Virus record (IMG/VR): IMGVR_UViG_3300025141_016572
DNA length: 24,666 nt
Reading direction: 5' to 3' (one strand)
Origin: a virus
In this document: positions 6,968 to 22,031 of the stretch, piece by piece
Numbering within the stretch: the stretch's first letter is position 1
Layout of the letters: every line of letters begins with the position of its first letter
Made by a program: the position numbers and the translations under genes
Notes under the pieces: model-generated
Told to the model about the DNA's origin: nothing
The model's input: the letters and a program-made list of their open reading frames with translations, nothing else
The model's database searches: none

Positions 6968-7135
6968 ATGCATGCACCCCAGATTATCATGATTGGCCTC
7001 TGGATTTTCGTTCTGACAGCCAGCCTGTTTATGGACGGCAAGCCACGAGATAATCCAAACTTTAGCTTTTTCGATTCCGTAGTTGGTATTGCAATCAATG
7101 TACCCCTGCTGTACTGGGGTGGATTCTTCGGGTAA
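6968..7135 (+). CDS. Small membrane protein (55 aa, MHAPQIIMIGLWIFVLTASLF...). It is absent from the ORF track because it is under 60 aa.
   Basis: ATG 6968 lies 9 nt after AAGGAGA and directly downstream of promoter copy 4. It contains a hydrophobic helix and ends at TAA 7133-7135, just before the RBS of the next gene. Confidence 0.55.
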   Translation: MHAPQIIMIGLWIFVLTASLFMDGKPRDNPNFSFFDSVVGIAINVPLLYWGGFFG

Positions 7136-7144
7136 GGAGTTCAC

Positions 7145-7501
7145 ATGCCTAGCAAAGATACAGCAAGACAATCGTGGAAACACAATATTCCCAAATTCAA
7201 ACCAACCGACATGGTCAACGTTTTCAACTTTGAAGCTGACTCAATCAATCTTGCGCCCAGCGAGTGTTTTTCATACGCAGATTGTAAGAATTGCCCGGGA
7301 CACAAAGGGAGCAGATGCACGCTGTCGGGGCCGAACGTTTCAAAAGATGACATTATAACAGTCATTGATTGTCGAGATGGTAGTGAAGATATGTTCCAAT
7401 TGGCACTATTGATGACCCCTGCCGGCGTATTGGGTTCTTTCGACATCCAGATGCTTGATTTTGTTCCGGAAATGAATCCAGAAGAGGAGAAGACCAAATG
7501 A
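7145..7501 (+). CDS. Hypothetical protein (118 aa).
   Basis: AAGGAG RBS before ATG 7145. Stop overlaps the next start (ATGA). Confidence 0.55.
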   Translation: MPSKDTARQSWKHNIPKFKPTDMVNVFNFEADSINLAPSECFSYADCKNCPGHKGSRCTLSGPNVSKDDIITVIDCRDGSEDMFQLALLMTPAGVLGSFDIQMLDFVPEMNPEEEKTK

Positions 7502-7713
7502 AAACGATCACAACGTGGAAAGTCAGCTGGCCGATGGACGACAAAGGCCTCAAGCAAAAAGACGTCTATGTCAAAAGCGAAACTGATGCCAAGGTCGTCT
7601 GCACATGGCCCATGGGCTATTGTGGATATGCTGGAAATTACGAGTCACACACCATCTATGTGGCCGAAGACTTCGAGGATGTCAAAAAATTGTTGGAGAT
7701 GAAGTTCGTCTGA
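7498..7713 (+). CDS. Hypothetical protein (71 aa).
   Basis: ATGA-coupled to the upstream gene. Confidence 0.5.
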   Translation: MKTITTWKVSWPMDDKGLKQKDVYVKSETDAKVVCTWPMGYCGYAGNYESHTIYVAEDFEDVKKLLEMKFV

Positions 7714-7723
7714 TATTTAGCTG

Positions 7724-8479
7724 ATGGAGCTTTCCATTATGCACATTCGTCAACTCATTCGTGAAATCCTGTTGGAGGACTTTGAGTCCTGGAAGGAAGC
7801 CATGAAGACTGGGCCGGCATACATCGATATTCAAACATCTGACATGCCAAACAAAGACCGTGCACGACAACCACGAGAAGTTAAGCGCACCTGGAATCAA
7901 CACGCAGATCATTCATTTTTTGACTCCCTCATAAAGGTTCACTGGCTCAGTGAGTATCTCATTGGTTTGCGACTAAAGGATCCAGTCAAAATGATCAAAA
8001 GTATTGTTGGTACATCCGGAAAGGATGAAATATCAACAATGGGTTACTTGGCCAACACCATGGTGAAGTCAGGTTGGGGAGAATATGGCGTCATAATTTC
8101 AGGCCGAGTTACACTGGCTGCTAATGACATGGATGATCTAATGACAGGTGAACATCCCGGAAGCTACGCGCCGGCTCGAAAAAAATGGAAATCGTCAGGT
8201 CTTCCGAGGCGCCCATCATCTTTCCAACCTTACATGGCTTCAAATTACATTCTGGACAGCGATTCCTTTGACGAGTATGAACAGGATCACAATGAACTGG
8301 TTGTAGATAACTGGAAAGCAACCGGGTTTGTCGTTCCTTATGAAATCAACCGAGCACATAGCGATTTGACAGCACGCGACAGGCAAATTTTGAAGGCGAT
8401 GAAAACCATCGGACTTCCGATCTATGACAACAAAATGGCCCCAGTGGATCTCAATATCGTTTTGGGAGACTACCAGTGA
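7724..8479 (+). CDS. Hypothetical protein (~246-251 aa). Start is ATG 7724 or ATG 7739 (MHIRQLIREILLE...).
   Basis: Track ORF. Read from 7739, its N-terminus shares the K/R-x-L-x-x-I-x-E-I-L-x-E motif with genes at 8476, 9004, 9302 and 10324. Confidence 0.55.
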   Translation: MELSIMHIRQLIREILLEDFESWKEAMKTGPAYIDIQTSDMPNKDRARQPREVKRTWNQHADHSFFDSLIKVHWLSEYLIGLRLKDPVKMIKSIVGTSGKDEISTMGYLANTMVKSGWGEYGVIISGRVTLAANDMDDLMTGEHPGSYAPARKKWKSSGLPRRPSSFQPYMASNYILDSDSFDEYEQDHNELVVDNWKATGFVVPYEINRAHSDLTARDRQILKAMKTIGLPIYDNKMAPVDLNIVLGDYQ

Positions 8480-8982
8480 AATCATCTAAACACCTACAAC
8501 AATTTGTGGAGCATGTGATTATGGAACAAGAGCAACGACCATTGTATACTGCACTCGTGGTGGACGCCCTGGGCGCAATGAAAATGCGCAGGGTGATACA
8601 GGAACAAAATCTCGATCGTGGACTTGATGGATGGCTGTCTTCAAATATTCATCCAGCACATGGTAACCAACAACTCAATCACCACATGACCATCACACCT
8701 GGTGCCTTGAAGCCGGCGAACCCGCTCAGGCTTCGACTTGGACAGGATGTGACACTTCATGTTGTCGGATGGGGCTATGATACGAAGCTCGGTGTCGCCG
8801 CTTGGCAGATCGATACTGTGTCTGGTTTCCCAACCAAGACTGGTGTACCCCATGTGACAGCAATGCTGGAAAATGACTCTGTCAAGCCGTTCAAAGCAGC
8901 GAAAATCAAGAATTGGAAAAAACTTCCTGAGTCGTTCGCAGTCAGGGGAACATTTCAAGAGGTTTTCCCACGGGAAAGATAG
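8476..8982 (+). CDS. Hypothetical protein (168 aa) with GTG start overlapping the upstream stop. N-terminus is MKSSKHLQQFVEHVIMEQE.
   Basis: Track ORF with GTGA coupling. Confidence 0.5.
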   Translation: MKSSKHLQQFVEHVIMEQEQRPLYTALVVDALGAMKMRRVIQEQNLDRGLDGWLSSNIHPAHGNQQLNHHMTITPGALKPANPLRLRLGQDVTLHVVGWGYDTKLGVAAWQIDTVSGFPTKTGVPHVTAMLENDSVKPFKAAKIKNWKKLPESFAVRGTFQEVFPRER

Positions 8983-9003
8983 TTAAAGACAGCAGGAGAG
9001 ACT

Positions 9004-9300
9004 GTGAAGATCACAAAGAAACAACTCAAAAACATTGTTGAGCAGGCCATGAGGCCTGCAGGTCGGCCAATCTATGAGATCGCTGAGGAGATCAAACAAG
9101 CTTGGCCGAAAGTTAATCCTCATGCTCAACCGTATCTGGACGCGATGTTTTCTTTGGACTCTGTCAATGACAAGTACGGGATGGAAGATGGAGCCAGCAT
9201 CGTGGAGTACTTTCTGGTCAATGCTGGATCATTTCGAGGGCCAGAAGCCAAGAGAATCAAGTCCGAGCTACGAAAAATGACAAAGGGATTTTGGAAATAA
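9004..9300 (+). CDS. Hypothetical protein (98 aa) with GTG start. N-terminus is MKITKKQLKNIVEQAM.
   Basis: GGAGAG RBS 4-9 nt upstream of GTG 9004. Confidence 0.55.
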   Translation: MKITKKQLKNIVEQAMRPAGRPIYEIAEEIKQAWPKVNPHAQPYLDAMFSLDSVNDKYGMEDGASIVEYFLVNAGSFRGPEAKRIKSELRKMTKGFWK

Positions 9301-9301
9301 C

Positions 9302-9358
9302 ATGAAAATCACGAAACGACAACTGAAGCAAATTATTCGAGAAGTGACATCGTCATAG
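9302..9358 (+). pseudogene. 18-codon ORF MKITKRQLKQIIREVTSS*, a truncated paralogous copy of the N-terminus of gene 9004. It is either a decayed duplicate or a leader-peptide-like remnant.
   Basis: About 67% nucleotide identity to 9004-9042 over the first 39 nt and the same amino-acid motif. It terminates at TAG 9356-9358, right before the RBS (AGGTGA) of gene 9368. Confidence 0.4.
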
Positions 9359-9367
9359 GTGATTCAA

Positions 9368-9856
9368 ATGAAAGCAGAAAAAGTGCTAGAGACATGGCTT
9401 AAGTTATCAGGCCTTTTGACAGAAGATATGTCATACGCAGAAGGTCAAGTTCTTGATAAGTTGAATTCCATGGCCGGGCCTCGGGGTCTTCCTGTCACTC
9501 ATGAAACACCGGCAGAAAACATTGATAGCATCAAAAGTATGGGAACTGTTGAAGGCACATACGGGGTCTTCTTTTCCATTGGTCATCTTAAAAATCCGGC
9601 ATTTGTCAGCGGCCCGGGATACATTATTCACGGATATCTGCCGAGGTTTATGCTTAACTCCAGGTATATTCACCCAGATATGATTTATGCTCCGGGTAGC
9701 AAAGACGAAGAAGACATGTTAGCTGGGGATGAGGAAGACTTTTGGGAAGTAATGTGGAATCAAACCCGAGGCAATTTGTTTGGGGCTCTTCTTAGCACCA
9801 ACTTAGACGATTGGCCTCAAAAATATTGGAAAGCAATTATTCCAAACGATCTTTAG
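9368..9856 (+). CDS. Hypothetical protein (162 aa).
   Basis: ATG 9368 with AGGTGA 5 nt upstream. Track lists GTG 9359. Confidence 0.55.
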   Translation: MKAEKVLETWLKLSGLLTEDMSYAEGQVLDKLNSMAGPRGLPVTHETPAENIDSIKSMGTVEGTYGVFFSIGHLKNPAFVSGPGYIIHGYLPRFMLNSRYIHPDMIYAPGSKDEEDMLAGDEEDFWEVMWNQTRGNLFGALLSTNLDDWPQKYWKAIIPNDL

Positions 9857-9865
9857 GAGAACACG

Positions 9866-10324
9866 ATGGCAACAACAATATCTAACGCAAACTTGGTTAT
9901 AACCGTAAACGAAGATGTCAAATTAAACGGTCACCAGGTTGGAAGCAAAATTGTGCAAACGATTGGTAGTATCAATGAGGCTTCGCGGCGAATAATGTCT
10001 GTGCCGACGTCAGAGACGACAGTTTTGACGCTGAGCAGTTCGATTGCTGCTGGCGGATACGTGACCAACAACATTCAGTACATTCGTGTTTCGAACTTGG
10101 ATGATACCAATTTTGTTCGATTGACATTCTTGTCGGGATCTGGCGGTTCATCAAATCGATACGATGTAAAGTTGCCAGCAAAGAGAACTGCTATTTTCAC
10201 AAGCCCAAGTGTATCTGGCTCTAACATAGGCTCAACATTTGATGCCTTTTCCAACTTTGACACCATGAAGGCCACCGCAGATACAGCAGTGGTTGATGTT
10301 GAACTTTTTGTTGCGAGTACCTAA
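9866..10324 (+). CDS. Hypothetical beta-rich Ser/Thr/Gly-rich protein (152 aa), possibly structural.
   Basis: AGGAGAacacgATG RBS. Composition only. Confidence 0.55.
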   Translation: MATTISNANLVITVNEDVKLNGHQVGSKIVQTIGSINEASRRIMSVPTSETTVLTLSSSIAAGGYVTNNIQYIRVSNLDDTNFVRLTFLSGSGGSSNRYDVKLPAKRTAIFTSPSVSGSNIGSTFDAFSNFDTMKATADTAVVDVELFVAST

Positions 10325-10605
10325 TGTCAAATTTGCTTCGTCGCATGATCGCTGAGGTGTTGCATGAAGGCGATATGGGTCACAACTCGTATACACTCGA
10401 TCCGACTCCCAATACGTGGGACAGCTTTCAAGATTTTGAAATTGAGTATTACCCACAAGACGACGGGACATATCTGATGGACATTTCTTTCAAGGGCAAG
10501 AAGCTCGCACCCATGAGTAAGTTTGGGACACAGGCTGATGCACAGCATCATGCAAGAATGATTGTTGACAAGCATCGAGTCAACGTGATGAATACCGAGC
10601 TCTAA
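10324..10605 (+). CDS. Hypothetical protein (93 aa). N-terminus is MSNLLRRMIAEVLHEG.
   Basis: Track ORF with start overlapping the upstream stop (TAATG). Confidence 0.5.
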   Translation: MSNLLRRMIAEVLHEGDMGHNSYTLDPTPNTWDSFQDFEIEYYPQDDGTYLMDISFKGKKLAPMSKFGTQADAQHHARMIVDKHRVNVMNTEL

Positions 10606-10619
10606 ATTCCTCCCAAATA

Positions 10620-10647
10620 TGTAAATCGAAGCATCCTCGGTTAGAAT
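10620..10647 (+). promoter_or_regulatory. Promoter copy 5 (degenerate): TGTAAA (10620-10625), 16 nt, TAGAAT (10642-10647). It is followed by leader hairpin GAGGTG-N9-CACCTC (10657-10677).
   Basis: Read directly. It sits in the only sizeable intergenic gap (87 bp) of the small-ORF block. Confidence 0.5.
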
Positions 10648-10692
10648 AACAACTGGAGGTGCAGTTCATTTCACCTCATGCAGTGGTAGAAA

Positions 10693-11121
10693 ATGAAAAT
10701 TTCTGACAAAATATCTACGCTATTCTCACCTCTTGATGTGGTCCTTATCGAAAAGGACTTCGAGCTGTTGATTGGGAAAAATGAAGAACCAGACATTTCT
10801 GATTCCATTCTCGATTATGCACAGGAGGTTTTGGGCGCCGGTGAACACCCTAGTAGAAATCCATCTTGCTGGCAGACATTTTTCGGTCAAGATATCGAGA
10901 TCGGTTCAAAGGAGTGGCGCGAAGGAATTGCAAATTTGCTTCGACTTACGTCGAAGCACACAGTATCAGAACTTGACAATGAGAGAAATCACTTGCTAGT
11001 AAGCGTAAAGCTAGAAGTCCTGGTTATAAATGCAAAGCAACTACCGGAATCGGTATTTCATGGAGCAAAATGCACATCAGTTCAAACGCCTTTCGGGGCC
11101 TTTCCAGTAACAGCAGAATGA
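10693..11121 (+). CDS. Hypothetical acidic protein (142 aa).
   Basis: Track ORF. Stop TGA overlaps the ClpP-like start (ATGA). Confidence 0.5.
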   Translation: MKISDKISTLFSPLDVVLIEKDFELLIGKNEEPDISDSILDYAQEVLGAGEHPSRNPSCWQTFFGQDIEIGSKEWREGIANLLRLTSKHTVSELDNERNHLLVSVKLEVLVINAKQLPESVFHGAKCTSVQTPFGAFPVTAE

Positions 11122-11744
11122 AAAGTCGATACCGGCTTGAGGATGTAGAACAAGCCGAACGTGTCGCTGCACATGAAATCATCATGAGTGAAGACAAAGG
11201 AAAACCGCTTGGTATTGAAGTAGAAGAGAATCATATCTATTTCTACTGTCCTGTCATGGAACGGGAATCATTGGAGCTCGTTCGAATTCTTCGCCGGCTT
11301 GATATTGAAATGAAATATCTTGGTGATCGGGTCGGCCTTCCGGAAAATCCCCCGATCCACTTGCACATTCAGAGTCCGGGCGGTGATATCTTCTCAGGAC
11401 TCAATATCTGTGATGTGATCACAAGTTGCAAGACGGATGTCTACACGTACATTGAGGGATCGGCTGCATCTGCATCTACAATGATTAGTTGCTGTGGCAC
11501 GAAACGATTCATCACTAAGAATTCGTTCATGCTTGTTCATCAACCACAAATGATGTTCTCTGGCAAACACGATGAGTTTATCGATGAGATTGAGAATCAA
11601 AAACACATCTATGCTGCTGTCAAACAAATCTACCTAGATCGGACTAAAATGTCTGATGATGTTTTGGCTGAAATGTTGACTCATGAATTGTGGCTGCCGG
11701 CAACTCGATGTAAAGAGTTGGGCTTGGTCGACTCCATTTGCTAG
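11118..11744 (+). CDS. clpP: ClpP-family (S14) serine protease homolog (~208 aa).
   Basis: IHLHIQSPGGDIFSGLNICDVI matches the ClpP [22 protein letters not shown] region. GSAASASTMI matches GQAASMGAFL (catalytic Ser). SFMLVHQP matches SRVMIHQP (catalytic His). The C-terminal LGLVDSI matches YGLVDSIL. The third triad residue (Asp) does not align obviously (THELWL vs TERDRF). Start at ATG 11118, translationally coupled, rather than track 11070. Confidence 0.8.
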   Translation: MKSRYRLEDVEQAERVAAHEIIMSEDKGKPLGIEVEENHIYFYCPVMERESLELVRILRRLDIEMKYLGDRVGLPENPPIHLHIQSPGGDIFSGLNICDVITSCKTDVYTYIEGSAASASTMISCCGTKRFITKNSFMLVHQPQMMFSGKHDEFIDEIENQKHIYAAVKQIYLDRTKMSDDVLAEMLTHELWLPATRCKELGLVDSIC

Positions 11745-11781
11745 AAGCAAGAATACAATATTCTCATAGTAGGAACATAAT

Positions 11782-13383
11782 ATGCCTAAGCATGACTGGA
11801 AACAGTTTTTTCCGTACAAGTCAATCCGTCCCGGTCAAGAACAAGCCATCAATGAAATTCTAGACGCATTTGAAAGTGACAAGAGGCTATTTGTCTTAGA
11901 GGCGGGCACTGGAATTGGGAAGTCAGCAGTTGCTGTAACTGTCGGTCGATACATGACACAACACTTTGAGACCGAAGAGGGGTTTCAAAAAGGGTGTAAC
12001 ATACTGACTACCCAAAAGTTACTACAAGAGCAGTACAATAGTGACTACCCTGCGATTAACTCTTTGAAGTCTTCATCGAACTACTCGTGTAATTTTCACA
12101 AGAAAGTGTCATGCAACGATTCCAGGAAGTTACTTCAAACAGAGCCGAAAGGGACTTCATTTTGGAGATGCTGTGCTATTAGTTGTGTCTACAAAAGGGC
12201 CAAAGAGAAGTTCATGGCGGACCCGTTTGGTGTCACGAATTTTGCATACTTTTTGACCGAGACTCGCTATTCTAAGAAGCTTCCAAAAAAGTCACTTCTC
12301 ATCATTGACGAGGCACACAACGTGCCAGACGAACTCAGCAGGTTCATTGAAGTGACATTTTCAGATAGGTTTGCCAAGTCATTCATCGGTATGAAACTCC
12401 CGGACAAAATCACTCCGGCGATGTTTGTCAAGTGGGTCTCCACAGATTACTATCCGGCGCTGGTACGAAAAGTCAAGGCATTCCGTTCAGGGCTAGAAAA
12501 GTTCACGACCATTAAGTCGCGGGTTGAGAGCGGAGAGTTTTCTAAGCTATCTCGTCAATTGGAGATCTTGACTGGTCATGAGCAGAAAGTCCTGTCATTC
12601 CTGGCTTTGTATGACAAGAACAACTGGCTCATGACAGAGGTTCCACCTGTTGATCGTTCTGGTCGAAGGGTAGAGTTTAAGCCAATTGATGTTGCGCCGT
12701 ATGCGCATGACTACCTGCTAAAAATGGGTAAGTATGTTTTGATGATGTCAGCGACAATTGTTGACACACATCGATTTGGTGAGCTATGCGGTATCACTGG
12801 AAAATTTGCATCTCTTGTGTTGCCCTGCCCGTTCCCCATCGAGAATCGGCCCATCGTGTATAGCGGGGTGGGCAAAATGTCAGCAAGGGAAATCGATTCG
12901 TCATTGCCCAAACTGGCGGCAGCTGTTAAGGAGATTCTGAAAAGTCACAAAGGTGAGAAGGGTATCATCCACACCCACACCTACAAAATTGCATGGTATC
13001 TCAAGCGAGTCTTAAGTGATCGACGCATAATCATTCACAACAGCGAAAACAGAATCGATATGCTACAAAAGCACATCAAGTCGAAGAAGGACACAGTTTT
13101 GATTTCCCCGTCGATGACTGAGGGTGTCGACTTAAAAGACGATCTCAGTCGATTCCAGATTGTCTGCAAGATTCCCTTCCCGTACTTGGGTGACCAGCTC
13201 ACTCGCAAAAAAATGAACAAGTGGAAGTGGTGGTATGACTTCCAAACGGCGAAGACTGTCATCCAATCGTCAGGTAGGTCTGTTCGAAGTGAAACCGACA
13301 CTGCCGTGACCTACATTCTTGACGCCTCTTGGGAACGATTTTTTGAAAACAACCGGTCGATGTTTGGCCCTGAGTTTCTATAG
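11782..13383 (+). CDS. Rad3/XPD/DinG-family superfamily-2 DNA helicase (533 aa).
   Basis: N-terminal FPYKSIRPGQEQAI with GTGIGKS Walker A (DinG/XPD motif I). DEAH box LIIDEAHNV. C-terminal motifs SPSMTEGVDL and QSSGRSVRSETD are typical of the Rad3-family helicase C domain. RBS is AGGAAcataatATG. Confidence 0.8.
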   Translation: MPKHDWKQFFPYKSIRPGQEQAINEILDAFESDKRLFVLEAGTGIGKSAVAVTVGRYMTQHFETEEGFQKGCNILTTQKLLQEQYNSDYPAINSLKSSSNYSCNFHKKVSCNDSRKLLQTEPKGTSFWRCCAISCVYKRAKEKFMADPFGVTNFAYFLTETRYSKKLPKKSLLIIDEAHNVPDELSRFIEVTFSDRFAKSFIGMKLPDKITPAMFVKWVSTDYYPALVRKVKAFRSGLEKFTTIKSRVESGEFSKLSRQLEILTGHEQKVLSFLALYDKNNWLMTEVPPVDRSGRRVEFKPIDVAPYAHDYLLKMGKYVLMMSATIVDTHRFGELCGITGKFASLVLPCPFPIENRPIVYSGVGKMSAREIDSSLPKLAAAVKEILKSHKGEKGIIHTHTYKIAWYLKRVLSDRRIIIHNSENRIDMLQKHIKSKKDTVLISPSMTEGVDLKDDLSRFQIVCKIPFPYLGDQLTRKKMNKWKWWYDFQTAKTVIQSSGRSVRSETDTAVTYILDASWERFFENNRSMFGPEFL

Positions 13384-13432: not shown

Positions 13433-14629
13433 ATGTCAGTTTTTTCACACCACAAGACGTCAGCTGATCGATCGGCATCTGACCGGCGGCGGCATAGACA
13501 GAAAATCGACAAAGCAATTCGTGAAGGTATTCATGACATTGTTGCGGATGAAAGCATCATCGGGCAGGATGGAAAAAAGAAGTTCAGAATTCCTGTTCGC
13601 GGCATAAAAGAGTATCGCTTCGTCTATGGCAACAATGAAAACAACAAGAAAATCGGATCGGCTCCAGGAAAAGATATTCGGCGTGACCAGATTGTCAAAG
13701 AGAAGTCTAGAAAAGAGAAGCAAGGTGAAGGCCAGGCCGGAAACAAGGCAGGTGAAGAGTATTACGAAGTTGAGATCACTTTGGATGAGCTAGCTCAATA
13801 CTTGTTTGCAGACCTTGAACTTCCAGATTTAGAGAAAAAAGCGCTGGTAAAAGTCAAGTCGGAGAAGCTTAAAAGAACCGGTTATCGTCCACAGGGCATC
13901 TTACCTCGCTTGGACAAGAAGAAATCTGCGATCAACAGAATCAAGAGGTTGAAGGCACAGCAGCGAGACAATGGTGCCGCGGTTGCTCTCGTCGATGAGG
14001 ACCCTGATGAGGAACTGGCTGGGTCGTTTCACAATGATGACCTGACTTATCGGCACTATAAAAACAAGATGAAAGAGAGCACAAATGCTGTCATCATGAT
14101 GTTGATGGATGTGTCTGGGTCGATGTCCAAGAACAAGAAGTTTCTTGCACGGAGTTTCTTCTTCCTGCTCTACCAGTTTATTCGGACGAGGTATGACAAG
14201 GTTGAAATCGTTTTCATTGCGCATGATGCCAGTGCCAAGGAAGTTAGTGAAGAGCAGTTCTTCTCGAGAATCGCATCTGGCGGAACGGTTGTCTCATCTG
14301 CATACAATTTGGCCCTGGAAGTTGCAGAAAAACGCTTCCACCCATCACTGTGGAACATCTACGCTTTCCACTGCTCAGATGGAGACAACTTTGGTTTCGA
14401 CACCAACAATATGCTAATCGCTGCGACCAAGCTTAAAGAGCTCTGCCAGCTGTTTGGATATTGCGAGATCATCCCATCAGACGAACCTGTGTGGAACAAT
14501 GATGAAAGGCTGTCGGTTCATCTAGCTCAGCTTGCATCACGGAGTGTGAAGCTTGTTGAGATAAAAGAAAAGTCCGATGTTTGGAGTGCATTTAAAGTGA
14601 TGTTCGGTAGTTGCGGCGGCAAAAAATGA
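13433..14629 (+). CDS. yeaH: YeaH/YhbH-family protein (DUF444, vWA-like).
   Basis: VIMMLMDVSGSM matches E. coli YeaH FCLMDVSGSM. GGTVVSSA matches GGTIVSSA. WNIYAFHCSDGDNF matches WNIYAAQASDGDNW. The overall length (398 aa) and Lys/Arg-rich N-terminus fit the family. GGAGG RBS 5 nt upstream. Confidence 0.85.
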   Translation: MSVFSHHKTSADRSASDRRRHRQKIDKAIREGIHDIVADESIIGQDGKKKFRIPVRGIKEYRFVYGNNENNKKIGSAPGKDIRRDQIVKEKSRKEKQGEGQAGNKAGEEYYEVEITLDELAQYLFADLELPDLEKKALVKVKSEKLKRTGYRPQGILPRLDKKKSAINRIKRLKAQQRDNGAAVALVDEDPDEELAGSFHNDDLTYRHYKNKMKESTNAVIMMLMDVSGSMSKNKKFLARSFFFLLYQFIRTRYDKVEIVFIAHDASAKEVSEEQFFSRIASGGTVVSSAYNLALEVAEKRFHPSLWNIYAFHCSDGDNFGFDTNNMLIAATKLKELCQLFGYCEIIPSDEPVWNNDERLSVHLAQLASRSVKLVEIKEKSDVWSAFKVMFGSCGGKK

Positions 14630-15927
14630 GCGGAACAATCAAAGAGCTCGAGCACTGGGACAAGAAGGTCAATGAAATAGCAACAGGCTACAAATTAGAT
14701 TGGCACCCAATCAGGTACGAAGTGTGTGACTACTACGCCATGATTGGACACATGGCTTATCACGGGCTTCCAACACACTATGATCACTGGTCATATGGTA
14801 AGTCATTTGAGAGGACACATCAAGCTTACAATGCAGGTGTGGAAGGCTTGCCATACGAACTCATCATCAATTCAGATCCGTCTATCGCATACTTAATGCG
14901 CGAGAACCCGCTGTATCTCCAGATCCTGATTATGGCTCACTGTGTCGGTCACAGCGATTTCTTCAAAAACAACCGAATGTTCAAGAGCACCCGGCCAGAA
15001 TCTGTCATTGGCAGGATGAGGGCAGCTAAAAAGCGAATCAAAGAATATGTGGAGGACCCAAGAATTGGAATTGACAGCGTTGAAGAGACTATCGATGCAT
15101 GTCATGCCTTGCAATTTCAAATCAACCGCGATGGGTCAGAACGCAGAACGCACAAGGAAATGGTTGAATACTACCGAGCTTTGTCAGAAAGAGACAATGA
15201 CGGTCGATATGTTGTCTATGACATCGATACTGTTCCTCTTGAACCGGAAGCTGATATCATGGGATTTGTTTCAGAGCATGGCAAAATGCCGGACTGGAAG
15301 CGTGACATTATTGAGATTTGCCGCGATGAGGCATATTACTTCATGCCGCAAATTCAAACCAAGATCATGAATGAGGGTTGGGCGAGTTTTTGGCACTACA
15401 CAATTTGTCACGATCTTGAGCTGCCAGACAAATACCACTTGCCGTTCCTCAAAATGCACAACTCTGTGATTCGTCCACACATTGGTGGGCTTAATCCTTA
15501 TCACCTAGGCTTTGTCATATTTCAAGACATCAAGAAGCGTCTTGGACTTGAAGAGTGCTTTATTGCGAGGGAATCCCTAAATGACGTGTCATTCATTCGC
15601 CAGTATCTTACTGAAGAGCTTGCTATGGAGTTGGGTCTGTTTAGCTGGAGTGAGAAAAAGAATGCCTGGACGATTGACGAAATCTCCGATGATGATGGGT
15701 GGAAACTCGTTAGAGACACACTGTGCAAATCAGTTGGTGACGCCGGAATACCGGTGATCAAGATTGAAGAGCTTTCGGAAAATGGTCACCTAACTCTTCA
15801 TCACGACCACGATGGTCGAGATATGATTCTCGACTATTCCGACAAAACAGTTGAACATGTTCGCATACTATGGCCTGGGGAGGTCCTTCTTCACACTATT
15901 GTTGAAGGTGATCCGTGGGAAATTTGA
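14626..15927 (+). CDS. spoVR: SpoVR/YcgB-family protein.
   Basis: YHGLPTHYDHWSYGKSFE...PYELIINSDPSIAYLMRENPLYLQILIMAHCVGHSDFFKNNRMF aligns with B. subtilis SpoVR (YGMPTRFSHWSFGKQF...[41 protein letters not shown]). MNEGWASFWH is a family signature. ATG 14626 overlaps the yeaH stop (ATGA). Track lists TTG 14611. Confidence 0.9.
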   Translation: MSGTIKELEHWDKKVNEIATGYKLDWHPIRYEVCDYYAMIGHMAYHGLPTHYDHWSYGKSFERTHQAYNAGVEGLPYELIINSDPSIAYLMRENPLYLQILIMAHCVGHSDFFKNNRMFKSTRPESVIGRMRAAKKRIKEYVEDPRIGIDSVEETIDACHALQFQINRDGSERRTHKEMVEYYRALSERDNDGRYVVYDIDTVPLEPEADIMGFVSEHGKMPDWKRDIIEICRDEAYYFMPQIQTKIMNEGWASFWHYTICHDLELPDKYHLPFLKMHNSVIRPHIGGLNPYHLGFVIFQDIKKRLGLEECFIARESLNDVSFIRQYLTEELAMELGLFSWSEKKNAWTIDEISDDDGWKLVRDTLCKSVGDAGIPVIKIEELSENGHLTLHHDHDGRDMILDYSDKTVEHVRILWPGEVLLHTIVEGDPWEI

Positions 15928-15975
15928 GTTTATGTTTTGTGCCACCGATTTACAGTGGCAACGAAAGGAGAATGC

Positions 15976-17907
15976 ATGAGTGTTAACAGCCTGCTGAAAG
16001 TCATTCAGAAACAGCGAAAAGTAAATGATGGTCGGGAGAGATTTTCTGGGACATTTACAGATTACTTACGATTGCTTGAGAAAAATCCTGATTTGGTGAA
16101 GTCATCTCACAAGAGGCTATACGAGGCATTGATTGAAGATGGCGTTGAAAAAATGCCGGATAGTAATCCGAGAAAGAGCAGGATTTTTGACAACAACACC
16201 ACTAACATTTATAAGTACTTTGAAAAGCACTTCTTCGGAATGGAGAGGGTCCTTGAGAACCTCATGTCATTTTTGCATTCCGCTGCTCATAAAGGTGAGG
16301 AGTCACGCCAAGTCCTTCTATTGATGGGTCCGGTTGGCGCAGGAAAATCTGCGCTTATCGAGCATGTTAAGCATGCGCTGGACGGAAAAGAGTACTATCA
16401 CTTGAAAGGAGACCCCCATCGAGGTGAGCCGCTTCAACTTGTTCCTCGCGGACTCCGTGAGACATTTGAAGAGACACTTGGCATTCGAATTGAGGGTGAT
16501 ATTAGTCCTGTTGCTCGTCACATTCTTCTAAAAGAGCTTGACGGCAAGTATGAGGATTTTGAGATTAAGCAGACAACGTTTTCACAGCGTGGGCGGCGAG
16601 GTATCGCATCAGTGCCTCCCATGGATGCCAATAGTCAAGACGTCGGTGTCCTAATCGGGTCGGTCGATATTTCCAAGCTAGACAAACATCCAGAGGACGA
16701 CCCTCGGGTCCTGTCACTCAATGGCGCTTTCAATGTCGGAAATCGTGGAATCGTGGAGCTTGTTGAGGTTTTCAAAAATGAGATCGAATTCCTTCATACC
16801 ATCATCACAGCCACACAGGAGAAGCGAATTCCATCTCCAGGCAAGAGTGACATGCTTCACTTTGATGGCGTCATCGTGGCACACTGCAATGAAGCAGAAT
16901 GGAATCGGTTCCAGTCCGAGCATACAAATGAGGCAATTCTTGATCGAGTGGTGAAAATTGATGTGCCGTACTGCCTCGAGCTAGATCAGGAAATGAAAAT
17001 CTACAAGAAAATGTTGGGTCTGTCAGACTTCAATGCGCATATCGCCCCACATACACTTCGAGTTGCATCAATGTTCAGCATCATGTCTCGGCTTAGATCA
17101 ACAGCAAAATGTGACTTGGTTACAAAAATGAAGATCTACAATGGCGAGGAGGTCGTCGAAAAGGGGCGAGTCAAGAAGATTGACCTACGTGATCTTAAAG
17201 ACGAGGCCCGGCGCGAAGGAATGTCTGGTATTTCTACTCGATTCATCGCCAAAGCTATCGACATGGCGCTTGTTCGAAGTGAAAACAATATGATCACGCC
17301 GGTGTCTCTGATTGACTCGCTGGTAACATGTATCAAGGAACAAATTTCAGATGAGGAGTTCAAAAACAAGTGCCTCGAGCTCGTCCAGAAAGTGGTTCGT
17401 GAAGAGTACCTGAAAATTCTTGATACAGAGATTGCGAAAGCATTCATCTCAGCGTATGAAGAGCAAGCTCAGGCATTGTTTGATGGTTACTTGGATAATG
17501 CTGAGGCATATACAACCCATCAGCGAATGAAAGATCGTGTCACCAAAGAAGAGCGAAAGCCCGATGAGAAATTCATGACTTCAATCGAGGAACAAATTGG
17601 TGTAACCGGCAGCTCGAAAGATGGCTTTAGAAGCGATGTGACAGCATACATGTTTGCCAAGATGCGACGTGGAGAAATTGTTGACTTCAAAACATACGAG
17701 CCGCTAAAGGAGGCGATTGAGTCATACCTCATCAACTCGGTTCGAGATATCTCTCGAATCGTGACGAAGTCAAAAACACGCGACAAAGATCAACAGAAAA
17801 AATACAGCGAAATGGTCTGTGTAATGATCGATCAGTATGGCTATAATGAAGATAGTGCTGATGAGATCCTCTCATACGCATCTAATAACCTCTGGAGAGA
17901 TAGCTAA
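15976..17907 (+). CDS. prkA: PrkA/YeaG-family putative serine protein kinase (AAA-type P-loop N-domain).
   Basis: RIFDNNTTNIYKYFEKHFFGMERVLENLMSFLHSAAHKGEESRQVLLLMGPVGAGKSALIEHVKHAL aligns with E. coli YeaG RIFSNKKIKVYPAFREFYGMEEVIEQLVAYFRHAAQGLEEKKQILYLLGPVGGGKSSLAERLKQLM. Further matches are KGDPHRGEPL/KGSPVNESPL, THTIITATQE/LHPLLTATQE and FDGVIVAHCNEAEW/FDGIILAHSNESEW. ATG 15976 with AAGGAG RBS. Confidence 0.9.
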   Translation: MSVNSLLKVIQKQRKVNDGRERFSGTFTDYLRLLEKNPDLVKSSHKRLYEALIEDGVEKMPDSNPRKSRIFDNNTTNIYKYFEKHFFGMERVLENLMSFLHSAAHKGEESRQVLLLMGPVGAGKSALIEHVKHALDGKEYYHLKGDPHRGEPLQLVPRGLRETFEETLGIRIEGDISPVARHILLKELDGKYEDFEIKQTTFSQRGRRGIASVPPMDANSQDVGVLIGSVDISKLDKHPEDDPRVLSLNGAFNVGNRGIVELVEVFKNEIEFLHTIITATQEKRIPSPGKSDMLHFDGVIVAHCNEAEWNRFQSEHTNEAILDRVVKIDVPYCLELDQEMKIYKKMLGLSDFNAHIAPHTLRVASMFSIMSRLRSTAKCDLVTKMKIYNGEEVVEKGRVKKIDLRDLKDEARREGMSGISTRFIAKAIDMALVRSENNMITPVSLIDSLVTCIKEQISDEEFKNKCLELVQKVVREEYLKILDTEIAKAFISAYEEQAQALFDGYLDNAEAYTTHQRMKDRVTKEERKPDEKFMTSIEEQIGVTGSSKDGFRSDVTAYMFAKMRRGEIVDFKTYEPLKEAIESYLINSVRDISRIVTKSKTRDKDQQKKYSEMVCVMIDQYGYNEDSADEILSYASNNLWRDS

Positions 17908-20723: not shown

Positions 20724-22031
20724 ATGACAAAGCTAAATAAGAAGATCATAATCCTCGATACCAGTGTTCTTCTCTATGACAAGAAGTCGCTAGAGAACTT
20801 TCCCGGGTGTGACGTCATTCTACCTCTGGTCGTCTTGGACGAGCTGGATAGATTCAAAGATAAGTCAGGCCTCCTTGGAGAGAATGCACGATATATCAAT
20901 CGTCTTCTGGACGAGTTCCGAAAGCTAGGTCCTCTGCATTCAGGTGTAGATGTAGGAAACGAACAGACGGTAACCATACGTCTAGTTACTCCAGATGTGC
21001 CCAGAGACTTTCCTCTTGATCCTACCTATGGTGACAACAGGATACTGTTGGAAGCCCTCCAGATCAAAGCAGGGAACCCAGATCGCAATATCACAATTGT
21101 CTCAAAAGACATAAATCTTCGTGTCAAAAGTGACGCGTTAGAACTTCGGTCTGAGGATTACTACAGTGACTATATCGATCTACCTGAGGATCATTGGACC
21201 GGTGTTGAAACCATAACACCGAAAGGAAATGAAATTGATAATCTGTATCAATCCAAGTCGATCCCATATGAAAGTGATATGAGTCACAACTCGTTCATTG
21301 TTTTGAGGGAAAAGCAATCAAAGAAGTCAGCTTTATGTGTCTGGAATGCCATTGAAGACAAGCTTCATTTAGTGCCCGATCTCGATGTCAAGACCGGTGA
21401 TACATCGAGTTTTTCTGCCAAGAATAAGGAGCAGAAATTTGCGATGTGGGCACTTTTGAACAATCAGATTCCACTGGTCACAATGACCGGTCTTGCCGGC
21501 TCCGGAAAAACATTTATGGCATTGCTGTCAGGAATCAATCAGGTTCAGTCTGGAAGGTATGAAAGGATCGTAATCACAAGAAACATCCAGCCTGTCGGAA
21601 AAGAACTGGGTTTTCTTCCTGGAGACGCAAACGAAAAGATGCTTCCATGGATGTCACCGGCAATTGACAATCTCAGAAATCACTTTAAGGATCGTCGAAC
21701 GTTTGATTTGATGCATGTGAACGGACTGATTGAAATTGCTCCGATGTCATTCATTCGTGGCAGAACTTTCGCGAATGCGTTTATTGTCCTGGATGAAGCT
21801 CAAAATGCTTCGATTCATGAACTCAAAACTGTGATCACTCGTGTTGGTGAAGGCAGCAAGATTATTCTAATGGGTGACACAGATCAGATTGACACACCCT
21901 ACATCAATAAGAACACGAATGGGTTGAGCATCGTGGCAAAACGGATGAGGGAGTCTCTCCACACTGCACACATCCATCTGCCAGTTGGAATAAGATCAAC
22001 TATCGCCTCAGAGGCAAGTTACTTGCTCTAA
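20724..22031 (+). CDS. phoH: PhoH2-type protein with an N-terminal PIN domain fused to a PhoH-like P-loop ATPase (YlaK-like).
   Basis: PIN region: IIILDTSVLL ... PLVVLDELD ... acidic residues. PhoH motifs: Walker A GLAGSGKTFMAL, Walker B FIVLDEAQN, signature GDTDQID. The 435-aa length fits PIN-PhoH fusions. Strong RBS TAAGGAGG. Confidence 0.85.
   Translation: MTKLNKKIIILDTSVLLYDKKSLENFPGCDVILPLVVLDELDRFKDKSGLLGENARYINRLLDEFRKLGPLHSGVDVGNEQTVTIRLVTPDVPRDFPLDPTYGDNRILLEALQIKAGNPDRNITIVSKDINLRVKSDALELRSEDYYSDYIDLPEDHWTGVETITPKGNEIDNLYQSKSIPYESDMSHNSFIVLREKQSKKSALCVWNAIEDKLHLVPDLDVKTGDTSSFSAKNKEQKFAMWALLNNQIPLVTMTGLAGSGKTFMALLSGINQVQSGRYERIVITRNIQPVGKELGFLPGDANEKMLPWMSPAIDNLRNHFKDRRTFDLMHVNGLIEIAPMSFIRGRTFANAFIVLDEAQNASIHELKTVITRVGEGSKIILMGDTDQIDTPYINKNTNGLSIVAKRMRESLHTAHIHLPVGIRSTIASEASYLL

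What the first reader, a model, noticed from the sequence alone, without database searches (positions are those of the whole stretch)
7724..10605. Block of small proteins sharing an N-terminal K-x-L-K/R-x-I-V/I-E-x-V/I-L-x-E motif, including a truncated tandem duplicate, near a ClpP-like protease
The N-termini are MHIRQLIREILLE (7739), MKSSKHLQQFVEHVIME (8476), MKITKKQLKNIVEQ (9004), MKITKRQLKQIIREV-stop (9302-9358) and MSNLLRRMIAEVLHE (10324). All share an amphipathic helix ending in (I/L)-x-E. The 18-codon ORF at 9302 is a nucleotide-level paralog (~67% identity) of the 9004 start and looks like a decayed duplication. The motif resembles N-terminal capsid-targeting or propeptide signals that prohead proteases cleave after L/I-x-E in T4-like phages, and a ClpP-family protease gene lies about 1 kb downstream (11118-11744). 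These could be injected or internal capsid proteins processed by that protease. Alternatively they form a paralogous family that diversifies by duplication.
Basis: inference. Interest (0 to 1): 0.6.

Follow-up and report, generated by a model that had tools for sequence, protein, structure and literature searches.

The report
Shared N-terminal tag on phage accessory proteins
The small proteins in this block each start with a short, strongly selected helical tag that uncultured marine giant phages attach to hundreds of otherwise unrelated proteins; it is probably a common sorting or packaging signal, like the capsid-targeting peptide of phage T4, but its partner is unknown and a link to the nearby ClpP protease is not supported.

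Summary
It comes from an uncultured marine phage whose relatives sit on 83-318 kb contigs. In those relatives, and in other marine viral contigs, up to about 18-25 adjacent small genes begin with an almost invariant 14-residue peptide, MKITKRQLRRII(R/K)E. Variants include MxLLREYIRELLxE and MKLLxENWRKYLNE.

- **Selection is on the peptide.** Synonymous codons vary freely.
- **Position.** 91% of copies sit directly on a start codon.
- **Key residue.** Residue 14 is Glu in 191 of 205 copies and never Asp. Conservation collapses after it.
- **Bodies are unrelated.** 199 proteins fall into 126 clusters. Some bodies have leaderless homologs elsewhere.

In the window, 9004 and the 9302 mini-ORF are canonical copies. 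7739, 8476 and 10324 are diverged copies, as their orthologs show. A further copy lies inside the 5933-6904 ORF. The 8476 body is a 2H phosphoesterase.

My preferred reading is a modular targeting or docking helix. Most likely it works like a T4-type capsid-targeting propeptide, possibly cut after (I/L)(I/L)-x-E. This is inference only: no virion data, head protease or scaffold could be examined.

The ClpP gene is real, but its adjacency to the array is not conserved. No database or paper searched describes this leader.

The parts
7739..8479 (+). Gene for a 246-aa protein of unknown function. Its leader MHIRQLIREILLED (7739-7780) is of type B. The ATG at 7724 is an unlikely alternative start.
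   Evidence: The family has 302 clusters at 50% identity. Members carry type A, B or C leaders on the same body, and some have leader plus body placed after another domain. Glu13 is invariant in 60 aligned members. No Pfam or PDB sequence match.
8476..8982 (+). Gene for a 168-aa protein: a diverged leader (8476-8526, MKSSKHLQQFVEHVIME), a short linker, then a 2H phosphoesterase body.
   Evidence: Orthologs carry canonical leaders. The AF2 model has mean pLDDT 88.5: helix 3-16 at pLDDT about 55 (blocks 1-10 and 11-20 average 53 and 56), a non-helical stretch at residues 17-23, and a body from residue 24 with block means of 87-98. Top Foldseek hits are the CNPase catalytic domain, AKAP18 and phosphoesterase 4qak. 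Two HxT motifs are conserved: the motif histidines, H126 and T128 are invariant and T72 is conserved in at least 90% of members.
9004..9300 (+). Gene for a 98-aa protein: a canonical type A leader (9004-9045, GTG start, MKITKKQLKNIVEQ) plus a phrog_13953 body.
   Evidence: External matrix score 26 bits. Body matches phrog_13953 at 1e-24. Body homologs in Gordonia and Mycobacterium phages and in metagenome proteins P0007-P0010 lack the leader. P0004 has a roughly 40-aa insert between leader and body.
9302..9358 (+). 18-codon leader-only ORF (MKITKRQLKQIIREVTSS). It is in frame with the next ORF across one TAG and is most likely a remnant left after loss of its body.
   Evidence: Best leader score in the window, 42 bits. 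Identical in independent assemblies L001 and L044. Weak ribosome-binding site. TAG is an ordinary stop in 7 of 23 window genes.
9368..9856 (+). Gene for a 162-aa protein whose N-terminus (KVLETWLKLSGLLTED) resembles the third leader type, ..RWxKLAGLLTEQ / ENWRKYLNE.
   Evidence: Proteins at the same position in L005, L006 and L010 are 429-497 aa, start ..RWC(K/R)LAG(L/I/V)(L/V)(T/Q)EQ and carry DLHVFDFDDTLG. Type C leaders also occur on 7739-family bodies.
10324..10605 (+). Gene for a 93-aa protein with a type-B-like leader (10324-10368, MSNLLRRMIAEVLHE). It is conserved next to the 152-aa gene in relatives.
   Evidence: Top type-B matrix score. Orthologs in L005, L006 and L010 start MKKSIVREIVRMVLREQ, MSGVLREIIHEIIREE and MKKVLLATIREIILEE, followed by a conserved ..DPxPNTWDSFQDF body.
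6299..6331 (+). Internal leader copy (GIQLLRELISE) between the cREC domain and an alpha/beta-hydrolase-like body in the 5990-6904 ORF.
   Evidence: In L044 the cREC gene ends just after the same motif (..HEGMNLLRELISETINRV-stop). In L006 the hydrolase-like body is a separate gene that starts with a leader (MIITRSDLTNLIRQCLLE).
11118..11744 (+). ClpP-family serine protease gene. It is a neighbour and is not shown to act on the leaders.
   Evidence: Pfam CLP_protease 7e-28; phrog_94 'head maturation protease' 2e-41. Nearest cultured relatives are ClpP-type head proteases of siphophages at 27-34% identity. Adjacency to the array is not conserved.

Best explanation
The block is the local, reduced and diverged version of a hypervariable gene array typical of a lineage of uncultured marine jumbo phages. 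Each gene encodes a short N-terminal amphipathic helix, often followed by a poorly conserved linker, and then a body that differs from gene to gene.

Shown:
- The leader is a separable module under strong selection at the amino-acid level.
- It sits at the very N-terminus, or at domain boundaries in fusion proteins.
- It ends in hydrophobic-hydrophobic-x-Glu.
- It is attached to many unrelated bodies, some of them enzymes. In the window these are a 2H phosphoesterase and a hydrolase-like protein. Elsewhere there are only marginal hits to PARP-like and GNAT-like domains.

Inferred: the leader is a common address tag read by one conserved partner. The most likely mechanism is the one known for the T4 capsid-targeting sequence. 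The helix would bind the prohead core or scaffold, so that a changeable set of accessory or counter-defence proteins is loaded into the capsid and injected with the DNA. The head maturation protease may remove the tag after the conserved Glu.

Arrays would grow and turn over by duplication of the leader and replacement or loss of the body. That process would leave leader-only remnants such as 9302-9358.
For: Distribution:
- A back-translated MKITKRQLRRIIR(E/D) pattern hit 27 stretches in IMG/VR, mostly on 50-293 kb contigs.
- There are tandem arrays in L022, L037, L041 and L051/L053.
- A leader profile found 880 proteins at E<=10 among a capped set of 960 candidates in 5.8 billion sequences. 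Best E was 2e-8, and all listed hits with source names were marine.

Selection on the peptide:
- All six Leu and six Arg codons are used.
- Same-residue codons are identical in only 42-70% of within-array pairs.

Position: 191 of 210 unique matches follow ATG, GTG or TTG directly.

Sharp boundary: residue 14 is Glu in 191/205 copies and Asp in 0/205, and conservation is lost from residue 16 on. In T4, residues 8 and 10 of the CTS govern processing, and Asp at position 10 blocks cleavage (PMC9026906).

Modularity:
- 199 bodies fall into 126 clusters. Only 8 of 839 same-locus pairs are similar.
- Window bodies are unrelated to each other.
- Leaderless body homologs exist.
- Types A, B and C are interchangeable on one body family.
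- The leader helix is detached and low-confidence in the AF2 model.

T4 parallels, from the T4 record itself: gp22 MLKEQLIAEA, gp24 MAKINELLRES, Alt MELITELFDED, gp21 MNEPQLLIET, and the truncated alt.-1/alt.-2 duplicates.

Structural context in one locus: in L020 about eight leader genes lie on the same strand between tail sheath plus tube and a baseplate hub gene. The tube protein resembles T4 gp19.

Neighbours of arrays (UvsX-like recombinase, UvdE, DnaJ, T4_baseplate) fit the T4-related jumbo group as described in PMC7824862.
Against: - There is no virion proteome, no cultured relative, and no head protease, scaffold or capsid gene in any sequence I could read. Packaging and cleavage are therefore pure inference.
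- Most arrays, including the window block, lie among replication, chaperone, RNA-repair and nucleotide-metabolism genes rather than head genes.
- The window's cargo (cREC, 2H phosphoesterase, HAD-like in relatives) would work equally well as ordinary cytoplasmic enzymes (PMC7824862).
- Internal leader copies and multi-leader ORFs show that the N-terminal position is not obligatory.
- The T4 late promoter motif is absent from the window.
- The resemblance to the T4 CTS is one of style, not demonstrable homology.
Confidence: 0.4

Rival explanations
1. The leader is a docking or co-assembly helix unrelated to the capsid. It would bring many accessory enzymes to one intracellular hub: a phage or host protein, a membrane, nucleic acid, or a condensate or compartment. 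It would work like the encapsulation peptides of bacterial microcompartments, and would not be cleaved.
For: The architecture of amphipathic helix, linker and cargo is the same as in microcompartment encapsulation peptides (PMC12339742 and PMC4594438, listed). PduD and PduP peptides, recalled from memory, look similar. The canonical leader has a hydrophobic face opposite a strongly basic face (helical-wheel reading of the consensus; high hydrophobic moment). Internal and repeated copies still make sense for docking. Window cargo are enzymes of one functional theme, cREC, 2H and HAD-like. Arrays mostly lie among non-structural genes.
Against: No microcompartment shell genes or other candidate shell were found in the window. 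The exception is a vault-protein homolog that is not conserved in relatives. Strict Glu and never Asp at residue 14, with an abrupt end of conservation there, is explained better by a cleavage or recognition site than by a generic amphipathic helix.
Confidence: 0.27
2. There is no common sorting function. The genes form a fast-evolving paralogous family expanded by tandem duplication, and the N-terminal helix is just the most constrained structural element or a general folding or solubility helix.
For: Tandem arrays, leader-only remnants and gene fusions point to frequent duplication and recombination. Many bodies are short, and none of the 103 leader proteins scanned reached a convincing Pfam domain match.
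Against: Some bodies demonstrably have an independent origin. The phrog_13953 body has leaderless homologs in actinophages, and the 2H phosphoesterase has its own fold. Only 1% of same-locus pairs share body similarity, while leader positions are more than 90% conserved. Three leader types occur on one body family. The leader does not pack on the body in the model.
Confidence: 0.13
3. The leader is a turnover or chaperone tag. It would be an N-terminal degron that hands early proteins to the phage ClpP working with a host unfoldase, or a binding site for the phage-encoded DnaK, DnaJ or GroEL.
For: A ClpP gene lies next to the block and is conserved in L005-L011. Array neighbours include DnaK, DnaJ, GroEL and, three times, peptide deformylase. 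A hydrophobic core flanked by basic residues is the kind of segment DnaK binds (established knowledge, not tested here).
Against: ClpP is missing next to the syntenic array in L051 and L023. No ClpX or ClpA was seen in the window. The leader does not match the known ClpX N-motifs as I recall them. Such chaperone genes are common in jumbo phages anyway (PMC7824862).
Confidence: 0.08
4. The conservation is at the nucleic-acid level: a translation-initiation or regulatory RNA element, or a recombination site.
For: The motif sits at the start codon. The A-rich MKITK codons favour initiation. Leader-only remnants suggest recombination next to the leader.
Against: Synonymous sites vary freely. All six Leu and Arg codons are used, and nucleotide identity within arrays is only 67-85%. 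Types A, B and C differ completely in DNA yet share the same helix pattern.
Confidence: 0.03

Closest known systems
Capsid targeting sequences (CTS) of phage T4 internal proteins IPI-III, Alt and gp24, removed by the gp21 prohead protease
   Same: Both are short N-terminal peptides (10-20 aa) shared by otherwise unrelated, non-essential and rapidly exchanged proteins. Both form an amphipathic helix ending in (L/I)-x-Glu. Glu is required and Asp is not tolerated for processing. Truncated 5' duplicates exist in T4 (alt.-1, alt.-2).
   Different: Here the peptide is longer and more basic, far more conserved, and present on up to about 25 genes per locus instead of a handful. It also occurs internally and in several copies per ORF. 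No gp21-type protease, scaffold or virion data are available. Sequence homology to the T4 CTS cannot be shown.
Long propeptides of ejection and inner-body proteins of phiKZ-like giant phages (phiKZ, 201phi2-1, SPN3US)
   Same: These are giant phages that load many proteins into the head through N-terminal propeptides cleaved after x-x-Glu. Paralogs gp53 and gp54 share an identical 15-residue N-terminus despite divergent bodies (PMC5694885).
   Different: Those propeptides are mostly 80-160 aa with an (S/A/G)-x-E motif, and they are proven by mass spectrometry. The present leader is 14-22 aa with hydrophobic-hydrophobic-x-E and is unproven.
Encapsulation peptides of bacterial microcompartments and cargo-loading peptides of encapsulins
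   Same: An amphipathic helix of about 18 aa, joined by a poorly conserved linker to diverse enzyme cargo, acts as an address tag for a protein shell (papers listed).
   Different: No microcompartment or encapsulin shell genes are present here. Encapsulation peptides lack an invariant terminal Glu, and their sequences are far less conserved.
Polymorphic toxin and effector loci with conserved N-terminal trafficking modules and variable C-terminal cassettes
   Same: A conserved N-terminal module with hypervariable C-termini, tandem cassettes, remnants and recombination-driven turnover (PMC3482391, listed).
   Different: Those N-terminal modules are large secretion-system domains in cellular genomes. 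Here the module is a 14-residue helix in phage genomes, and no toxin or immunity pairs were seen.

Membership tests
T4-type capsid targeting sequence / head-protein propeptide | A short N-terminal peptide shared by otherwise unrelated proteins of one phage | tested here: met
   Window bodies are unrelated. 199 leader proteins fall into 126 body clusters. Leaderless body homologs exist.
T4-type capsid targeting sequence / head-protein propeptide | The peptide ends in the protease motif (L/I)-x-Glu, and Asp is not accepted at P1 | tested here: met
   Residues 11-14 are I-I-(R/K)-E. Glu occurs in 191/205 copies and Asp in 0/205. The window leaders end LLE, IME, IVE and LHE. This is a sequence-level match only. 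The T4 rule comes from PMC9026906.
T4-type capsid targeting sequence / head-protein propeptide | The genome encodes a gp21-type (herpesvirus-assemblin-like) prohead protease and a scaffolding core that binds the peptide | tested here: inconclusive
   T4 gp20-24, gp67 and gp68 found nothing in about 0.5 Mb of held loci. Only gp19 matched the L020 tube. Head modules of the 170-320 kb contigs could not be fetched.
T4-type capsid targeting sequence / head-protein propeptide | The proteins are present in the virion, N-terminally processed and ejected | not testable with these tools
   There is no cultured relative. The closest helicase match is 34% identical. None of 103 leader proteins matched a PHROG family except one weak hit.
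ClpP / peptidase S14 (gene 11118-11744) | ClpP fold with a Ser-His-Asp triad | tested here: met
   Pfam CLP_protease 7e-28 over residues 93-223. GSAAS, VHQP and LDR motifs are visible in the translation (read by eye).
ClpP-type prohead (head maturation) protease | Encoded in the head module next to portal, scaffold or capsid genes, often fused to the scaffold or capsid protein | tested here: not met
   It is flanked by a 142-aa unknown gene and a helicase and has no fused domain. Its best cultured relatives are head proteases next to portals, but at only 27-34% identity.
Bacterial microcompartment encapsulation peptide | Co-occurrence with BMC shell proteins (Pfam BMC, EutN/CcmL) | tested here: not met
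   No such domains were found in the window proteins scanned or among the Pfam families listed for array neighbours.
2H phosphoesterase superfamily (body of 8476-8982) | Two H-x-(T/S)-x motifs on a duplicated alpha+beta fold | tested here: met
   NHHMT and PH(I/V)TA motifs are conserved across the 37 aligned sequences: the histidines, H126 and T128 are invariant and T72 is conserved in at least 90%. The model (pLDDT 88.5) matches CNPase, AKAP18 and 4qak, with TM up to 0.6. No sequence-level Pfam or PDB hit.

The most novel reading that the evidence does not exclude
The leader is a general phage-encoded protein-sorting signal of a kind not yet described. One 14-residue tag would route dozens of unrelated effectors per genome to a destination other than the classical T4-type prohead core. 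Possible destinations are a phage-built compartment or condensate in the infected cell, or a new capsid-loading route independent of proteolysis. The array would be a rapidly exchangeable effector arsenal.
Probability: 0.2. Interest if true: 0.85.

Novelty: new variant of a known kind. Interest (0 to 1): 0.66.

Why it matters
If the leader is an address tag, it marks in sequence alone the full set of proteins that a large group of abundant ocean phages sends to one place. That place is plausibly the capsid, and then the next host cell. This would turn hundreds of orphan marine viral genes into a defined class of candidate injected effectors or counter-defence proteins, such as the 2H phosphoesterase here.

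It would also extend the T4 capsid-targeting principle well beyond T4, and provide a short portable tag for loading foreign proteins into phage particles.

The leader is easy to search for, with profile E-values of about 1e-8 against 5.8 billion proteins. The hypothesis is therefore directly testable in existing viral metaproteomes.

Tried and rejected
Searches that found nothing or did not help:
- blastn of 7000-12000 against cultured phages: no match.
- tblastn of a 23-aa leader against cultured phages: no match. A query this short cannot reach significance, so the result is uninformative.
- The search for related loci with the 9004 and 7739 proteins: nothing confirmed.
- Pfam, PHROGs and NCBIfam on 103 leader proteins: essentially nothing.
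- PADLOC on 10 window proteins: one hit, unrelated to the leader genes (mad8, 2.6e-7, on the 2014-2817 ATPase).
- PDB sequence searches for 8476, the 152-aa family and the 7739 family: nothing.
- Full-text search for leader strings: 0 papers.
- Single-sequence AF2 of the 152-aa protein failed (pLDDT 38) and was not used.
- The T4 late promoter TATAAATA is absent from the window.
- T4 head proteins found no head genes in the held loci.
- PHROG scan of unknown ORFs around the ClpP of L008, L010 and L006: no head genes.

Ideas considered and rejected:
- Stop-codon recoding as an explanation of the in-frame TAG. TAG ends 7 of 23 window genes.
- Conservation at the DNA or RNA level.
- The major-vault-protein homolog as the leader's partner. 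It is not conserved in syntenic relatives.
- Hydrophobic moment alone as a discriminator of leaders. It does not separate them from other N-termini.


Full report
**What is in the window.** The + strand from about 5.9 to 22 kb is densely coded.
- 7739-8479: 246 aa, MHIRQLIREILLED.
- 8476-8982: 168 aa, GTG start, MKSSKHLQQFVEHVIME.
- 9004-9300: 98 aa, GTG start, MKITKKQLKNIVEQ.
- 9302-9358: 18 codons, MKITKRQLKQIIREVTSS.
- 10324-10605: 93 aa, MSNLLRRMIAEVLHE.

Downstream lie a ClpP-family gene (11118-11744; Pfam 7e-28), a helicase, a DUF444-SpoVR-PrkA trio and a PIN-PhoH gene. Upstream are a cREC-domain gene and, on the other strand, an 890-aa homolog of the major vault protein.

The nucleotide identity between the 9004 start and the mini-ORF is 60% rather than 67%.

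**Origin.** The same sequence occurs in marine metagenome assemblies. There is no nucleotide match among cultured phages. Relatives of the ClpP gene at 66-73% identity lie on IMG/VR contigs of 83-318 kb with the same local gene order, so the window belongs to an uncultured marine jumbo phage. The nearest cultured phages by helicase are distant jumbo phages: Tunturi_5 at 34%, RsoM2USA and Bacillus phage G.

**The motif is one instance of a very large phenomenon.** In the related loci many more ORFs begin in the same way. A back-translated MKITKRQLRRIIR(E/D) pattern hit 27 stretches of IMG/VR, mostly on 50-293 kb contigs. It also hit two 101-kb and 306-kb contigs binned into bacterial MAGs.

These loci hold tandem arrays of small genes of about 70-450 aa, each starting with this peptide. 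On the overlapping Tara contigs L051 and L053, more than 20 such genes lie directly upstream of the same helicase-DUF444 cluster that follows the window block. The window block is therefore the syntenic, reduced and diverged counterpart of that array.

From 191 unique genes the consensus is M-K-I-T-K-R-Q-L-R-R-I-I-(R/K)-E, with most positions above 80% conserved. A profile of these leaders retrieved 880 proteins at E<=10 out of a capped set of 960 candidates from 5.8 billion sequences, with best E-values of 2e-8. All listed hits are short proteins, and those with source names come from marine metagenomes such as Tara and GOS.

**Is it more than chance in the window?** I built a matrix only from leaders of other contigs. 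It gives 42 bits for 9302 and 26 bits for 9004, against a next best of -4.6 among 27,654 positions.

A second leader type, M(K/N)LLREYIR(E/S)LLxE, also occurs in arrays (L042, L017). Its matrix ranks 10324 first, 7739 fourth and an internal site at 6305 fifth. This matrix is less specific, because two out-of-frame positions score similarly.

The 8476 N-terminus is diverged, but its orthologs carry canonical leaders such as MKITESQLRRIIREE..VLRE-GDDAP.

The 7739 family has 302 clusters at 50% identity. Different members carry type A, type B or a third type (MKLLxENWRKYLNED) on the same body. That third type resembles the N-terminus of the 9368-9856 protein and of the large HAD-like proteins at the same position in relatives (..RWCKLAGLLTEQ).

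**Selection acts on the peptide, at the N-terminus, up to a Glu.**
- All six Leu and six Arg codons are used at the conserved positions. Within arrays only 42-70% of same-residue codons are identical. An RNA or DNA element, or recent duplication, therefore cannot explain the conservation.
- 191 of 210 unique matches directly follow ATG, GTG or TTG.
- With residue 14 left free, it is Glu in 191 of 205 copies and never Asp. Position 15 is E, A or S, and conservation is gone from position 16 on.
- About a third of leaders continue as a helix to a second (L/I)(L/I)-x-E eight residues later.
- Types B and C and all window copies also end in hydrophobic-hydrophobic-x-E.

**The leader is a separable module.**
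- The window bodies show no similarity to each other.
- Among 199 leader proteins the bodies form 126 BLAST clusters. Only 8 of 839 same-locus pairs are similar.
- The 9004 body (phrog_13953) has homologs in Gordonia and Mycobacterium phages and in metagenomes that begin exactly where the leader ends. One relative has a 40-residue insert between leader and body.
- In the AF2 model of the 8476 protein (mean pLDDT 88.5), residues 3-16 form a detached helix at pLDDT about 55. A short non-helical stretch follows, then a confident body.
- That body is a 2H phosphoesterase. It has two conserved HxT motifs, and its best fold matches are CNPase, AKAP18 and 4qak.
- The leader also occurs at domain junctions. 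In the window it sits between the cREC domain and a hydrolase-like body (6299-6331). In L006 that body is a separate leader-bearing gene. In L044 the cREC gene ends just after a leader remnant.
- Some long ORFs contain up to four leader copies.
- The 9302 mini-ORF is a leader without a body. It is identical in two independent assemblies and in frame with the next ORF across a TAG. TAG is a normal stop in this window, so I read the mini-ORF as a remnant. Low-level readthrough is not excluded.

**What it most likely does.** A nearly invariant short peptide on many unrelated proteins of one genome implies a single reader of that peptide.

The closest known case is the T4 capsid-targeting sequence. 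Its ten N-terminal residues suffice to load IPIII or foreign proteins into the prohead core. Processing depends on residues 8 and 10, Asp at position 10 blocks cleavage, and the internal-protein set varies between related phages (PMC9026906; PMC5694885).

The T4 record itself shows the same style of N-terminus: gp22 MLKEQLIAEA, gp24 MAKINELLRES, Alt MELITELFDED and gp21 MNEPQLLIET. It also shows truncated duplicates of the 5' part of alt.

There is circumstantial support for a virion link. In L020 about eight leader genes sit on the same strand between tail sheath plus tube and a baseplate-hub gene. The tube resembles T4 gp19, and array neighbours fit the T4-related jumbo group.

I therefore rank a CTS-like packaging tag first, at 0.4. 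No head protease, scaffold or virion data could be examined, and most arrays lie among non-structural genes.

**Rivals.**
- A docking or co-assembly helix for a non-capsid hub, as in microcompartment encapsulation peptides, fits the architecture and the enzyme cargo. It explains the invariant Glu less well, and no shell genes are present (0.27).
- A mere paralog family is contradicted by the independent origin of the bodies (0.13).
- A degron or chaperone tag rests only on gene neighbourhood: ClpP here; DnaK, DnaJ, GroEL and peptide deformylase near other arrays (0.08).
- A nucleic-acid element is refuted.

**The ClpP link.** The gene is a genuine ClpP-family protease. Its nearest cultured relatives are head proteases of siphophages, but at only 27-34% identity. 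It has no portal, scaffold or capsid neighbour. Its adjacency to the array is lost in L051 and L023, where a trypsin-like gene sits instead, and in L007-L011. Jumbo-phage ClpP genes have been judged patchy and host-directed (PMC7824862). Cleavage after L/I-x-E is the specificity of the gp21 family, not of ClpP.

**Novelty.** Pfam, PHROGs and NCBIfam have no model for the leader or for nearly all bodies. A full-text search for the peptide found no paper. The principle, a short N-terminal tag on a variable set of phage proteins, is known from T4. The scale, the degree of conservation, the several leader types and the lineage appear to be undescribed.

Noticed in passing
window 2937-5609 (-): An 890-aa protein with major-vault-protein shoulder (9e-22), vault repeat and SPFH/Band-7 matches, which is unusual in a phage. 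It has no PHROG match. G+C is higher here (52-58%) than in the rest of the window (43-46%). It is not present at the syntenic place in L005, L006 or L010.
   Followed up: partly
window 13433-17907 (+): A complete DUF444 (YeaH-like), SpoVR and PrkA gene trio, the bacterial stress and sporulation kinase module, carried by the phage. It is conserved after the helicase in L001, L005, L006, L010 and L051.
   Followed up: no
window 9302-9856: The leader-only mini-ORF and the following ORF share a frame and are separated by a single TAG, identically in independent assemblies. Readthrough would give a leader-tagged isoform of the 9359/9368 protein. No evidence for recoding was found.
   Followed up: partly
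window 5990-6904; L044 80-439; L006 2068-2721: The cREC (cyclic-phosphate processing receiver) gene is fused in frame, through a leader copy, to an alpha/beta-hydrolase-like body. In L044 the cREC gene ends right after the leader remnant. In L006 the hydrolase-like body is a separate leader gene.
   Followed up: yes
L006 7711, L024 512, L025 460, L029 12733, L033 3228, L035 3614, L038 9615: Seven of the 19 leader copies that lack a start codon have ATA (Ile) where Met should be. They lie 65-469 codons into a longer ORF and are often preceded by GES or NES, which is a translated GGAG ribosome-binding site. They are either gene fusions or unusual initiation.
   Followed up: partly
L041 3696-4949, L037 2957-4321, L029 11992-12945 and others: Single ORFs of 300-450 aa contain two to four complete leader copies spaced about 60-120 residues apart, like polyproteins made of array units.
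   Followed up: no
window 9866-10324; L005 8786-9244; L006 8022-8471; L010 7982-8431: A beta-rich 149-152-aa protein is conserved at 67-80% identity. It always lies just before the 93-aa leader gene and, in L005, L006 and L010, near ClpP. It has no match in any database, and single-sequence structure prediction failed.
   Followed up: partly
L005 7301-8776, L006 6307-7800, L010 6469-7758; L035 917-1996 (C-terminus): A third conserved motif, ..RW(C/Q)(K/R)LAG(L/I/V)(L/V)x(E/D), heads large proteins that carry a HAD-type DxDxT motif. In L035 it appears at the extreme C-terminus of a leader protein.
   Followed up: no
L051 6218-9123; L023 2086-5019; L025 1749-2575; L037 1220-2951: Between the leader array and the helicase lies a conserved set of genes: a small membrane protein, a thioredoxin-like lipoprotein and a trypsin-like lipoprotein on the opposite strand.
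   Followed up: no
L018, L021, L008 and the 209-kb JGI contig: Leader-bearing jumbo phages encode their own DnaK, DnaJ, GroEL, sigma-70 factor and, in three loci, peptide deformylase, close to leader genes.
   Followed up: no
window 20724-22031: A PIN-PhoH fusion protein (PIN_4 6e-26 plus PhoH 5e-52).
   Followed up: no
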